Of a stretch of DNA of 10,894 nucleotides, positions 1 to 3,000 are shown in pieces (position 1 is the stretch's first letter; each line of letters opens with the position of its first letter). The stretch is from a virus (Duplodnaviria; Heunggongvirae; Uroviricota; Caudoviricetes). The stretch is taken from IMG/VR virus record IMGVR_UViG_2740892526_000019; one strand, written 5' to 3'. The position numbers were made by a program.

Positions 1-3000
1 ATGAGCAGAGCACTTAACAAACTGAGCGATACACAGCTGAGGAAAATCAACGGCACACCCGCCCAAAAAACAGCCTTTCTTAATGACGGTGGAAACCTGA
101 GCGTCAGGCATTCAACCAGTGGCCTTTTAACCTGGTATTTCACTTACAGGGCCGGAACGGGAAGGGGGGCACCACCGGAACGCATTAAGCTGGGAAATTA
201 TCCTGATCTGAGCCTGAAATCAGCCAGGGAAAAAGCCGCCCAGTGTCGCGCATGGCTGGCAGAGGGGAAAAATCCACGTCATGAGCTTAATTACACCGTA
301 CAGGAAGCGTTAAAGCCGGTAACGGTTGGCGATGCGCTCACCTACTGGCTTGAGTCGTACGCAAAGGAAAACCGCGTGGATTATGCCGCCCTGAAAAAGC
401 GCCTTAATAATCACGTAATACAGCACATTGGTGCTATGCCGCTGGATAAATGCGAGCTACGGCACTGGCTGGCCTGTTTTGACCAGGTGGCAAAGCGAAC
501 GCCTGTTACTGCCGGATTCTTGCTACAGACGTGCAAACAGGCGCTTAAGTTCTGCCGGAGGCGGCGCTATGCAATCAGCAACGTTCTTGATGATATGAGT
601 GTGGCGGACGTTGGGAAAAAACCGGATATAAGCGAGCGTGTCTTAAGCACCAAAGAACTGGGCGAATTATTGCAGGCACTGGACAAAAAAATATTCTCCC
701 CCTACTACATCGCGTTAATCCGCCTCCTGATTGTGTTCGGATGCCGGACGGTAGAACTGAGGTTATCGGAGATCAGCGAGTGGGATTTTACCGAAATGCT
801 CTGGACCGTGCCGAAAGAACACAGCAAAACGAAGGTGGCAATATTCCGGCCCATACCGGAAGCAATACTGCCGTTCGTCACGCAGCTGGTGGAGCAGAAC
901 AGGCACACGGGTTTATTGCTGGGGGAAGTGAAACAGGAAACAAGCGTGTCGCAGTACGGCAGATTAGCGCATAGGAGGCTAAATCACCCTCACTGGTCAC
1001 TACATGACATCCGGCGCACCTTTACAACGATGCTGAACGATTTAGGCGTGGATCCTCACGTCGTGGAGCAGCTTACAGGCCACCAGATGCCAGGAATGCA
1101 GCGAGTTTATAATCATTCCCGTTATCTGGATGCTAAACGCAATGCGCTGGATATGTGGACGGAGCGGTTAGGGATACTGGCGGGAACACATGAAAACGTA
1201 ACCACGCTACCAGTAGCCAGAAGAAAATAATTTTTTTCGTGTTTTTTCAGCATGCGCATACTGGATATGCGAACAGATACAACGTGCAGCAATGAGCAAC
1301 AATGTGGAACAACCACGAACAAGAGGCGAAAAAGCGTACGGATTTATAAGTAGCTGATTTTTAATGTGTTACTGGTTTTTTATACACTAGCGAATCACTC
1401 TTTAAAGAGCGAGAAAAAAGGCATGAAACAATATTTTATGCCTTTGTATTAACATGAATTTAAAAGATTTTATTCTTACTGTTTCATTTTCTGTAAATCA
1501 TACATCCTCAGTATTTGCCATTCATCACTCTAGCGGGAACAATACGACACAATAAGACACCTGATGACTCTTTAAGAAACGAAAGGGGGCAATAGTGTTA
1601 AGCACTGATCGGTTTATACGTGAAAAAGAATGCGAAAAACTAACCGGCCTTAGCCGTACGTGTCGCTACCGCCTGGAAAAGGCCGGACAATTCCCATCAC
1701 GTCGTAAACTTGGCGGTCGTTCCGTTGGCTGGTCTTTATCCGAGGTTCTGGCCTGGAAGGATAGCTGCAAGGCAGTTCATTAATCACGCTGGCGGCACGC
1801 AGCCGCCACACATCAATCATCTGAACACAGAGCTATAACCATGAAGATTGAATATACGCCAGAACGTGGGCGGGGATTCGTTCGCCCTGGTGAAACTGAA
1901 AAACAACAAAATTGGGGTTTTTCAGGTATAAAAAAAGCGGCCCCGAAATGGAGCCGCCTTTCTGAACAGATAACCCGCTGCGCCGTTTGTGTGTGTGATC
2001 CCAAACATAAGCACGGGGATGATAGCCGCTATCAGGCTGGTGGGCAATGCAATCAGTCTGGTTCAGTTCGTTGCCATACCTGCAATGAGCGCTTTTCCCT
2101 GTACTCTTTAAGGAATTGCTCAAGGGCAAAAGCACATGGTGCGAATCTTTCTGATTCATGCTCTATCTTTCTGCGCCGTCTTTTCCGTGCCGGTGATAAT
2201 GTTTTGGTCAATTCTTTATCGGTCATTGTGTTGTCCTGCATAGCAATGCGCCGTAATACCTCACACCACGGCGCTGATAGTTTTTATCCTTTGGGTTCTA
2301 TACCGCGCCGCTTTAGTTCAGTACGCCCCAACTCTTTAAGCCAGTTGGCTAGGCTTATGCCGTCGCTCTGTGCTTCTTTATCGAATTGCTCTTTTAGCTC
2401 TGGAGAAATTCGCATTCTGAATTGTGGGGATTGCCCGTCCCCTTTAGGGCTTTTATCGCGTTTGATTGTTGACAAGTGGTCACCTATTGAATTAGCCTTT
2501 CTATTGTTAGGTGGTCACCTTAACACAAGAGCACTTAAAAAAGCAAAGCCCCGCAAGTGTCATTACCACTCGCAGGGCTTCTAACCAACAACGTAAACTA
2601 GGAGCCGTTATGGTTGCTGTAAATCATATACCACACCTTGTACACACACAAACGGCCTTTGTGTGGCGTTTTCTGGCACTGAGTGCCGGAGAATCTCAAA
2701 TCATCCACGTAACCGCCTGGACGGAACGCGAAGCGCGTAGCCGTTGCCCGTCAGGTTGTGTTGCTGTATTTGCCGCCCGTATTCGTCAGGGGGTGTGCCA
2801 TGCTTAAAACCTTCCGTGTATTTGCCAGCGCTGTTAACCCACTAGGCCACACAATTGGTATCGCTCAGAATGTGAAGGCTGTTAATGTTCAGACGGCTAT
2901 TGCTGCGGTGAGAAGCGAATCATCAGAATATGGCTTATCACAAGTCATTATTTCAGCAGTGTATGAATTAAAAGAGGTGCATTAATGAAGGAAATTACAT

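What the first reader, a model, noticed from the sequence alone, without database searches (positions are those of the whole stretch)
1231..1594. Structured int-alpA intergenic region: phased hexamer site, perfect palindrome and a hairpin
Between int and alpA lie three features. One is the triple (G/C)AACAA site at 1297..1322. Another is a perfect 12-bp palindrome CTCTTTAAAGAG (1399..1410), with a related half-site ACTCTTTAAGAAA at 1568..1580 just ahead of the alpA SD. The third is a hairpin, AAAGGCAT (1417..1424) / ATGCCTTT (1438..1445), which on the minus strand is followed by a T-run. This is more organisation than a simple terminator-plus-promoter needs. It could be a control region for alpA, or encode a leftward small RNA antisense to the alpA leader.
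Basis: seen in the sequence. Interest (0 to 1): 0.45.

Follow-up and report, generated by a model that had tools for sequence, protein, structure and literature searches.

The report
alpA control region with phased operator repeats
The gap between the integrase gene and the master-switch gene alpA of an E. coli phage satellite holds a conserved promoter, a conserved hairpin and a row of short repeats one DNA turn apart, and the same repeats recur at the island's ends and before its capsid genes, so they are probably the docking sites of AlpA, which have not been mapped.

Summary
The window is the left part of an EcCIEDL933-type capsid-forming PICI.

- **Observation.** All three features exist. 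The palindrome and the "half-site" are each one base off.
- **Hexamer site.** This is the real finding. It is a 5-unit array of RAACAA at 10-bp phase (1277-1326), conserved in 54 of 55 variants. Its 25-bp core recurs inverted before the capsid gene (7555-7579). Further copies overlap the alpA -10 (1536-1552) and lie at 7248. Outside the window, copies sit on both att arms beside tandem 12-mers that resemble P4 Int arm repeats. The layout matches TorI, Vis and Apl sites, so AlpA is the likely binder. Binding is inferred, not shown.
- **Hairpin.** It is conserved with compensatory changes and is probably a terminator insulating alpA. Its strand is unresolved.
- **Palindrome.** It is no better than chance and perfect in only 11 of 55 variants.
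- **"Half-site".** It is an invariant leader motif that matches BoxA at 10 of 11 positions.
- **Promoter.** TTGCCA-17-[AC]ACAAT is kept in 55 of 55 variants.
- **Leftward sRNA.** No support was found.

Verdict: a new member of a known kind, of moderate interest.

The parts
1..1230 (+). int: tyrosine integrase with an N-terminal arm-DNA-binding domain
   Evidence: Pfam Arm-DNA-bind_3 (5e-18) and Phage_integrase (1e-16). ORF.
1231..1249 (+). Conserved T-rich block directly after the int stop codon (TTTTTTTCGTGTTTTTTCA). Function unknown.
   Evidence: Mean column identity 0.94 in 14 representatives that are less than 96% identical to each other.
1277..1326 (+). Distal array O1: five RAACAA units at exact 10-bp phase. 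Proposed AlpA (RDF-type) operator.
   Evidence: far beyond chance. ACAA phases 0.90-0.96 conserved against 0.59-0.73 for the spacers; at least 3 phased units in 54 of 55 variants and 5-6 units in 46; unit number and register shift between lineages, but motif and phase are kept.
1354..1397 (.). Highly conserved block CTGATTTT...ACTGGTTTTTTATACACTAGCGAATCAC. No consensus promoter fits it. Function unknown.
   Evidence: Mean identity 0.88. Alignment.
1398..1409 (.). Perfect palindrome CTCTTTAAAGAG. Weak, lineage-specific feature.
   Evidence: chance level. One lineage has CGCTTTAAAGCG, a double change that keeps the symmetry. Only 11 of 55 variants have a perfect 12-bp palindrome here. The right half is variable.
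1414..1450 (.). A6 run, 9-12 bp hairpin and T-rich tail. Probable intrinsic terminator or insulator between int and alpA, possibly bidirectional.
   Evidence: in 22 variants the stem cells are 174 Watson-Crick, 20 G.T and 2 A.C, with a compensatory A-T to G-C change. The + strand U-rich tail is present in 17 of 22 variants. The - strand U6 is present in 22 of 22.
1449..1476 (+). Candidate promoter P1 (TTAACA-16-TATTCT). Only partly conserved.
1488..1497 (+). Invariant TCTGTAAA. A similar TTTTGTAAATTAT abuts the capsid-side array. Unexplained.
1515..1543 (+). Candidate alpA promoter P2: TTGCCA-17 bp-AACAAT.
   Evidence: TTGCCA-17-[AC]ACAAT is present in 55 of 55 unique variants, although a 10-bp indel sits right after the -35 in many of them.
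1535..1558 (+). Proximal array O2: GGAACAATAC GACACAATAA GACAC. Same motif and phase as O1. It overlaps the -10 and the predicted start of P2.
   Evidence: (D7). Phased ACACAA-type units are also seen in the indel variants.
1567..1579 (+). BoxA-like at 10 of 11 positions. It ends 15 nt before the GTG.
   Evidence: Mean identity 0.99. Exact in 50 of 55 variants and a one-base variant in 4. BoxA consensus GYTCTTTAANA from PMC5725501. The match is not significant on its own.
1595..1783 (+). alpA: 62-aa winged-helix protein of the AlpA/Vis excisionase-regulator family.
   Evidence: Pfam Phage_AlpA 5e-17. PHROG "excisionase and transcriptional regulator" 2.5e-17. PDB 8c3t AlpA-family protein 2e-6.
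7241..7274 (+). O3: two phased units (GAAACAAACA GACACAACAG) between the perC terminator and a small ORF of phrog_1957.
7555..7579 (-). O4: inverted copy of the O1 core (24 of 25 bases identical), just after a terminator and 216 bp before the capsid ATG.
   Evidence: I2. It is conserved in 41 of 42 unique cf-PICI variants with capsid at least 69% identical, while the rest of that IGR diverges.

Best explanation
The int-alpA spacer is the insulated control region of alpA, the master activator of this capsid-forming PICI.

- **Terminator.** Transcription from int ends at, or is damped by, the conserved hairpin at 1417-1445.
- **Promoter.** alpA is transcribed from TTGCCA-17-AACAAT (1515-1543). 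The leader is about 45 nt and carries an invariant BoxA-like motif.
- **Operators.** The phased RAACAA repeats are operators for a small winged-helix protein that binds head to tail, one protomer per helical turn. That protein is most probably AlpA itself. Like P4 Vis, KplE1 TorI and 186 Apl, AlpA would be both recombination directionality factor and transcription regulator. There is a distal site (O1, 1277-1326) and a site over the promoter -10 and start (O2, 1535-1558).
- **Regulon.** The same motif marks both att arms (excision), the capsid operon (O4) and a small ORF (O3). The arrays would therefore outline the AlpA regulon. O1 and O2 would be the cis targets of the AlpA autoregulation shown for EcCICFT073.

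Shown here: the sequence features, their non-randomness, their conservation and their distribution. Inferred: which protein binds, the sign of regulation at each site, the transcription start, and the strand on which the hairpin acts.
For: **Arrays**
- They are far beyond chance and found only in intergenic places.
- Conservation is phase-specific.
- The array persists in 54 of 55 variants even where the register and the number of units change.
- The capsid-side copy is the only conserved block of its IGR.

**att arms**
- Arrays lie on both att arms in five integration-site classes.
- Each lies next to tandem 12-mers GGTGTAGTTAAT x2. These parallel the annotated tandem 12-bp attP arm repeats of P4 and the doubled motif of HE-PICIs (PMC10111431).
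- That leaves the arrays for a second protein.

**Known parallels**
- KplE1 TorI sites are GTTCG-type boxes at 10-bp phase between the core and intS (PMC2951348; sequence). The motif core, the spacing and the position are the same as here.
- RDF sites are typically direct repeats one helix turn apart, at att and at promoters (PMC7498355 abstract; RdfS).

**AlpA**
- AlpA is PF05930, an excisionase/regulator family.
- AlpA activates PalpA in EcCICFT073 and is required in EcCIEDL933.
- AlpA of PICMI acts as an excisionase with a TorI-like fold.

**Other points**
- The arrays do not follow the replicon. L013 and L014 lack the AACCCGC ori iterons but keep the arrays.
- The promoter is kept in 55 of 55 variants.
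- The hairpin shows compensatory change.
Against: - No binding data exist. Int and AlpA always travel together in the islands I could fetch, so covariation cannot separate them.
- RDF sites on both att arms are unusual.
- O1 lies about 190 bp upstream of the P2 -35, and O2 lies over the -10. That geometry fits repression or looping better than simple activation, yet published data say AlpA activates.
- In an EcCICFT073-site island (L014) the IGR units are CGAACC-like, while the att-arm units are CGAACAA.
- The hairpin lacks a + strand U-tail in 5 of 22 variants.
- The G.T excess amounts to about 6 against 2 independent events, which is not significant.
Confidence: 0.55

Rival explanations
1. 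The phased RAACAA arrays are arm-type binding sites of the integrase, not AlpA sites. The internal copies would let Int repress or organise the alpA and capsid promoters.
For: The arrays lie on both arms of the reconstructed attP, as arm-type sites do. Int has an arm-binding domain. Lambda P'1-P'3 sites are also tandem at about 10 bp (my own knowledge).
Against: A better candidate for arm sites exists. Tandem 12-mers GGTGTAGTTAAT x2 lie on both arms directly before int. They parallel the annotated P4 arm repeats and the HE-PICI doubled motif. The arrays also occur 1.3 kb and 7.5 kb inside the island, at promoters. In motif and position they match TorI sites, not the IntS arm sites of KplE1.
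Confidence: 0.15
2. The arrays are bound by a protein from outside the island, for example the excisionase or another small DNA-binding protein of the helper phage. That binding would be the unknown signal by which helpers switch on alpA.
For: alpA transcription needs a helper phage, and the inducer is unidentified. Excisionase cross-talk between a PICI and its helper has been shown. The arrays sit at exactly the genes that must fire on induction.
Against: There is no direct evidence. AlpA alone induces excision and replication without a phage, so the island's own protein must recognise att and promoter sites. The helpers are diverse (lambda, phi80, HK106, HK446).
Confidence: 0.1
3. The BoxA-like sequence plus the hairpin (1397-1445) is a nut-like or attenuator site. 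Transcripts coming from int or from an upstream promoter stop at the hairpin unless a helper antiterminator (N-like) or the Nus complex lets RNA polymerase read through into alpA.
For: ACTCTTTAA lies 11 nt before the hairpin. In a diverged lineage the sequence is CACTCTTAAAAA. By my recollection of lambda nutL, which I did not check here, that is close to its boxA. The leader motif matches BoxA at 10 of 11 positions. alpA is helper-dependent.
Against: The 1397 copy is not conserved: CGCTTT, CGCGTT and other forms occur. The hairpin loop varies freely, unlike a boxB. A complete, fully conserved promoter lies downstream of the hairpin. BoxA-like matches are at chance frequency. No promoter is evident between O1 and the hairpin.
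Confidence: 0.07
4. A leftward small RNA starts near the alpA leader, ends at the hairpin with its U6 run, and acts antisense to alpA.
For: The run of U on the minus strand is invariant in 22 of 22 variants, while the + strand tail is lost in 5.
Against: No sigma-70-like minus-strand promoter was found in 1100-1900. The best hand-found candidate, TTTACA-19-TAAAAT, has a non-standard spacer. There is no Rfam match. The convergent leftward genes already end at a strong terminator at 1957->1923. Stem mismatches favour the + strand, though only weakly.
Confidence: 0.06

Closest known systems
KplE1 (CPS-53) attL: TorI (RDF) boxes and IntS arm sites overlapping PintS
   Same: GTTCG-type boxes at 10-bp phase lie between the core and int. 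They are followed by Int arm sites just before the int ATG (PMC2951348; sequence). The RDF also regulates transcription. Here TTGTTC/TTGTTT boxes at 10-bp phase are followed by the 12-mer doublet and then int.
   Different: TorI sites are known only on attL. Here arrays lie on both arms and at three internal intergenic sites. AlpA and TorI are only weakly similar (29% over 42 aa).
Satellite phage P4: Vis (AlpA homologue), attP arm repeats, late promoters
   Same: Both are satellites with a P4-type Int and tandem 12-bp arm repeats on both arms next to int. Vis is a PF05930-type protein annotated as excisionase and transcriptional regulator. From my own knowledge of Cali et al. 2004 and Polo et al. 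1996, Vis binds two boxes between int and the attP core and regulates PLL and Psid.
   Different: The gene order and repeat sequences differ. P4 has its own immunity RNA. Vis sites have not been described as long phased arrays.
Coliphage 186 Apl and P2 Cox
   Same: Both are dual excisionase/regulators whose sites are direct repeats one helix turn apart, at att and at promoters (PMC7498355 abstract; PMC3936717 abstract).
   Different: They belong to different protein families. Apl and Cox mainly repress lysogenic promoters, whereas AlpA is reported as an activator.
EcCICFT073 / EcCIEDL933 AlpA circuit (Fillol-Salom 2018; Alqurainy 2022)
   Same: It is the same element type. PalpA is activated by AlpA and by a helper phage, and alpA is essential for induction.
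   Different: Those papers map no cis-elements. The arrays, the P2 promoter, the hairpin and the leader motif are not described in any paper I could search.
HE-PICI doubled attP motif tgTGTATTGCantgTGTATTGCa (PMC10111431)
   Same: A tandem 12-bp doublet is present once on each attP arm in the same orientation. This is the same design as GGTGTAGTTAATGGTGTAGTTAAT here.
   Different: The sequence differs. The authors state that the motif is absent from other PICIs, and they report no phased RAACAA arrays.
Pseudomonas aeruginosa AlpA / phage Q antiterminators
   Same: They share the name. A -10-like hexamer (CACAAT) lies 10 bp after the -10 of P2, as in Q- and AlpA-loaded promoters.
   Different: Pseudomonas AlpA is a 21Q-like protein with DNA-contacting residues numbered up to 142 and is not related to this one. 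It gave no PDB sequence hit. Its binding element lies between -35 and -10, and a terminator follows. Neither holds here.

Membership tests
RDF-type (excisionase/regulator) operator arrays | Short direct repeats spaced one helical turn apart | tested here: met
   There are five units at exactly 10 bp. The phase is kept in 54 of 55 variants.
RDF-type (excisionase/regulator) operator arrays | Copies in the att region between the core and int | tested here: met
   L001 11680-11719 lies 52 bp before the int ATG. The same holds in L002, L005-L009, L011 and L013-L015, and there are right-end copies. These lie outside the window.
RDF-type (excisionase/regulator) operator arrays | A cognate small winged-helix RDF encoded by the element | tested here: met
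   AlpA matches PF05930 at 5e-17 and PHROG "excisionase and transcriptional regulator".
RDF-type (excisionase/regulator) operator arrays | The RDF binds the repeats | not testable with these tools
   This needs EMSA, footprinting or ChIP.
Integrase arm-type sites | Repeats confined to the arms of attP | tested here: not met
   The arrays also occur at 1277-1326, 1535-1558, 7241-7274 and 7555-7579. The 12-mer TGTAGTTAA doublet is confined to the arms.
Intrinsic terminator (hairpin 1417-1445) | A stable stem kept by compensatory change | tested here: met
   Of 198 stem cells, 174 are Watson-Crick. There is an A-T to G-C double change. z = -3.9 on the + strand.
Intrinsic terminator (hairpin 1417-1445) | A U-tract directly after the stem on the transcribed strand | tested here: inconclusive
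   The + strand has TTTGTATT-type tails in 17 of 22 variants. The - strand has U6 in 22 of 22. The consensus scan did not call it on either strand.
Sigma-70 promoter (P2) | -35 and -10 hexamers at 16-18 bp, conserved | tested here: met
   TTGCCA-17-[AC]ACAAT occurs in 55 of 55 variants, across a 10-bp indel. The start site was not measured.
BoxA / nut site | Match to GYTCTTTAANA in the transcript within 50 nt of the start codon | tested here: inconclusive
   ACTCTTTAAGA matches at 10 of 11 positions, with A for G at position 1. It ends 17 nt before the GTG and is invariant. One-mismatch hits are at chance frequency.
BoxA / nut site | A boxB hairpin with a conserved loop following boxA | tested here: not met
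   No hairpin follows 1567. The hairpin after 1397 has a freely varying loop.
Q / Pseudomonas AlpA antitermination | A homologous antiterminator protein, and a binding element between -35 and -10 with a terminator downstream | tested here: not met
   The protein here is 62 aa and of the PF05930 family, unlike the much larger 21Q-like fold (residues numbered to 142). There is no PDB sequence match. O2 lies over the -10 and start, and there is no terminator between P2 and alpA.
Known small RNA / cis-regulatory RNA families | A match to an Rfam covariance model | tested here: not met
   There is no hit in 1231-1594. The only hit in the window has E = 0.44 and lies elsewhere.

The most novel reading that the evidence does not exclude
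Helper phages switch on alpA by antitermination rather than by activating a promoter. The BoxA-like element and the conserved hairpin would form a nut-like or attenuator module. A helper N-like factor, or Nus-factor loading, would let polymerase coming from int read through this module into alpA. AlpA would then lock the switch on through the O1 and O2 arrays and spread to the att arms and the capsid operon. That would give the first mechanism for PICI induction in Gram-negative bacteria.
Probability: 0.07. Interest if true: 0.8.

Novelty: new member of a known kind. Interest (0 to 1): 0.5.

Why it matters
[quoted passage not shown] Neither its DNA targets nor the helper-phage signal that turns alpA on is known (PMC6092414; PMC11773190).

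This work yields a defined, conserved motif. It marks the alpA promoter region, both att arms and the capsid operon. It comes with a promoter conserved in all 55 variants and an insulating hairpin. Together these give concrete sites to mutate and footprint:
- They would show whether AlpA is both excisionase and activator.
- They would define its regulon.
- They would narrow where the helper signal must act, because the remaining conserved blocks (1354-1397, TCTGTAAA and the leader motif) become the candidates.

The kind of mechanism, an RDF/regulator binding phased repeats, is well known. The gain is for satellite biology, not a new principle.

Tried and rejected
- **Rfam.** A scan of the whole window at E <= 1 found nothing in the region.
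- **Genome contigs.** A scan with AlpA gave only 3 loci, and only the Shigella locus was usable.
- **Distant AlpA relatives.** L085-L096 (56% identity) have no comparable spacer, so they gave no covariation test.
- **Separating Int from AlpA.** I tried covariation across islands. Both proteins and both motifs change together or hardly at all, so the test is not decisive.
- **Replication iterons.** I considered that the arrays are iterons, as P4 type I repeats (TGTTCACC) are. I rejected this. The ori iterons here are AACCCGCA at 5858-6187, and islands with other replicons keep the arrays.
- **Pseudomonas AlpA-type antitermination.** Rejected, because the protein is unrelated.
- **Antisense read-through from the leftward genes.** I considered that such read-through ends at the hairpin. 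This was weakened by the strong minus-strand terminator at 1957->1923.
- **Strand of the hairpin.** G.T outnumbers A.C by 20 to 2 cells, but this is only about 6 against 2 events and is not significant.
- **Small ORFs in the spacer.** Judged non-coding, because the 10-bp indel and lineage replacements break their frames.
- **Other sites.** I hand-searched for IHF, cII and sigma-E sites and for a promoter between O1 and the hairpin. Nothing convincing turned up.
- **Shared TGTAAAT.** This 7-mer is shared by the alpA and capsid IGRs, but a 7-mer is too short to count as evidence.
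Full report
**Context**

The window starts at the ATG of a tyrosine integrase gene (1-1230). This is followed by alpA (1595-1783), a DUF927 primase (3710-5842), an SSB gene, perC, and capsid, protease and portal genes. The 364-bp spacer is 100% identical to a spacer in E. coli 2013C-3342, in an island next to roxA. It occurs in 710 of 5426 complete E. coli genomes at 79-100% identity, many of them O157:H7. The gene content is that of the capsid-forming PICI EcCIEDL933, for which alpA is essential and is switched on by helper phages HK106 and HK446 (bioRxiv 10.1101/2022.09.08.507074). 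In the related EcCICFT073, PalpA is activated by AlpA itself and by an unidentified helper-phage factor (PMC6092414). No paper I could search maps the cis-elements.

**Observation**

All three features exist.
- The palindrome is at 1398-1409 and the "half-site" at 1567-1579, each one base off.
- The hairpin extends to 12 pairs with one G.T.

**The hexamer site is the strong feature**

It is a five-unit array at exact 10-bp phase (1277-1326). The phased pattern is far beyond chance: 7 matches against 0.12 expected.

I collected 55 distinct versions of the spacer at 64-100% identity. In 14 representatives the ACAA positions are 0.90-0.96 conserved, against 0.59-0.73 for the spacer positions. In the most diverged lineage the array has six units in a shifted register, yet keeps motif and phase. 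Of the 55 versions, 54 have at least 3 exact phased units.

The 25-bp core recurs, inverted and 24 of 25 bases identical, at 7555-7579. That is directly after a terminator and 216 bp before the capsid ATG. There it is the only block conserved across cf-PICIs whose capsids are down to 69% identical.

A strict two-unit pattern hits only four places in the window, all intergenic (0.02 expected):
- O1, the distal array.
- 1536-1552, overlapping the -10 of the alpA promoter (O2).
- 7248-7264 (O3).
- 7555-7571 (O4).

**Outside the window**

In the same island and in relatives at five integration sites, a four-unit array lies 52-90 bp before the int ATG, and a three-unit array lies at the right end. 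Each is followed by a tandem 12-mer, GGTGTAGTTAAT x2. The TGTAGTTAA core of that 12-mer occurs exactly elsewhere in the 26-kb locus L001 only once, in flanking chromosomal DNA at 5709-5717.

**Who binds**

- The P4 record annotates tandem 12-bp attP arm repeats on both arms, next to int.
- HE-PICIs have an analogous doublet on both arms (PMC10111431).
- The 12-mers are therefore the natural Int arm sites (Int has Arm-DNA-bind_3). The arrays are left for another protein.
- In KplE1, the mapped TorI (RDF) sites are GTTCG-type boxes at 10-bp phase between the core and intS, upstream of the IntS arm sites (PMC2951348; sequence). Motif core, spacing and order are the same as here.
- RDFs characteristically bind direct repeats one helix turn apart, at att and at promoters (PMC7498355; RdfS).
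- AlpA is a 62-aa PF05930 protein, classed by PHROGs as an excisionase and transcriptional regulator. PICMI AlpA behaves as an excisionase with a TorI-like fold.
- The arrays do not follow the replicon type.

I conclude that AlpA is the most likely binder. This is an inference. Int and AlpA always co-occur, so covariation could not separate them.

**The promoter**

TTGCCA-17-AACAAT (1515-1543) was the best consensus match. TTGCCA-17-[AC]ACAAT is present in all 55 variants. Many of them carry a 10-bp insertion just after the -35, which replaces the spacer and brings a different hexamer into place. That is strong comparative support for a promoter with a start near 1550. O2 overlaps its -10 and start.

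**The hairpin**

Across 22 variants the nine core pairs give 174 Watson-Crick cells, 20 G.T and 2 A.C. One lineage shows a full A-T to G-C compensation. The stem is therefore selected.

The strand is unresolved:
- The G.T excess favours + strand RNA, but it amounts to only about 6 against 2 events.
- The + strand U-rich tail is lost in 5 variants.
- The A6 run, which reads as U6 on the minus strand, is invariant.

I read the hairpin as an insulating terminator after int, possibly bidirectional. A second element bounds the alpA unit on the right: an A-run, a hairpin and a T-run at 1923-1957. It is a strong minus-strand terminator (-24.5 kcal/mol, z = -3.2).

**The palindrome**

It is at chance level. 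It is perfect in only 11 of 55 variants, and its right half varies. One lineage keeps the symmetry through a double change (CGCTTTAAAGCG). I treat it as weak.

**The "half-site"**

ACTCTTTAAGAAA is the best-conserved stretch of the region, with identity 0.99. It lies in the predicted leader. It matches the BoxA consensus GYTCTTTAANA at 10 of 11 positions (PMC5725501), but such near-matches occur at chance frequency. This is a lead, not a finding.

**Leftward sRNA**

- No minus-strand promoter was found.
- There is no Rfam hit.
- The convergent leftward genes are terminated before alpA.

The idea is not supported, but it is not fully excluded.

**Verdict**

The region is a real and richly organised control region. 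Its key element is one member of an island-wide set of phased operator arrays of the RDF/regulator kind. That makes it a new member of a known kind. It is useful because it makes AlpA's targets, and the location of the helper signal, directly testable.

Noticed in passing
L001 11680-11750 (left att arm, 22-92 bp before the int ATG; outside the window) and L012 3950-4011 (right end of the same island): Each att arm carries a phased TTGTTC-type array (4 and 3 units) followed by the tandem 12-mer GGTGTAGTTAAT GGTGTAGT(TAAT), in the same orientation on both arms. Weaker 10-bp-phased TGTTT units fill the stretch between the presumed core and the left array. A similar doublet was reported only for HE-PICIs and was said to be absent from other PICIs (PMC10111431).
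   Followed up: yes
window 7542-7579 and 7757-7795: In the capsid IGR, only TTTTGTAAATTAT plus the three TTGTTC units are conserved across diverged cf-PICIs. Directly before the capsid ATG lies a hairpin GTCCTGG-16 nt-CCAGGAC followed by T8 (-17.2 kcal/mol). It contains the only Shine-Dalgarno-like AGGA, so it could be a terminator or a translational lock. It is kept in the window lineage and in L138, but not in the 72%-capsid group.
   Followed up: partly
window 2056-2241 (-) and 2287-2475 (-), against the RefSeq + strand ORF at 1841-2584: The 247-aa + strand "hypothetical protein" annotated in the identical genome has no family hit. Two minus-strand ORFs under it do: phrog_21027 (1.6e-15), which is 98% identical to an annotated minus-strand protein in L010, and an Arc/HicB-like repressor fold (phrog_228, 5e-7). 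AT skew is strongly negative here. The real genes probably run leftward and converge on alpA. One of them may be a repressor, which has not been described for Gram-negative PICIs.
   Followed up: partly
window 1916-1962: An A7 run, a hairpin and TTTCT, invariant in four diverged islands, form a strong minus-strand intrinsic terminator (14 pairs, -24.5 kcal/mol, then U7). It ends the leftward genes before alpA. With the 1417-1445 hairpin it brackets the alpA unit.
   Followed up: partly
window 2469-2485, 2504-2520 and 2545-2581: Direct repeats TTGACAAGTGGTCACCT and TTGTTAGGTGGTCACCT (operator-like, the first containing TTGACA) lie in the divergent region between the Arc-like gene and the icd-like gene. 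A 15-pair minus-strand terminator lies at 2581->2545 with no gene to its right on that strand. This may mark a small leftward RNA. A weak Rfam hit (E = 0.44) overlaps it.
   Followed up: no
window 1397, 1567, 2103 and 2331 (+ strand): There are four exact copies of the 9-mer ACTCTTTAA on one strand within 1 kb, where well under one exact copy would be expected. Two lie in the spacer. The other two lie antisense inside the two leftward ORFs, in the same codon phase. Unexplained.
   Followed up: partly
window 5858-6187: A dense set of direct and inverted AACCCGCA iterons lies just after the primase gene. This is the probable origin of replication. Islands L013 and L014 lack this iteron.
   Followed up: partly
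They fit no promoter, IHF site or known motif that I tried. They are candidates for the helper-phage-responsive element.
   Followed up: partly
L001 (NZ_CP027766.1), compared with the window: In the genome with the identical spacer, int is annotated as frameshifted, and the primase and perC carry internal stops. The window's int and primase ORFs are intact. The window therefore comes from a different, probably functional copy.
   Followed up: no
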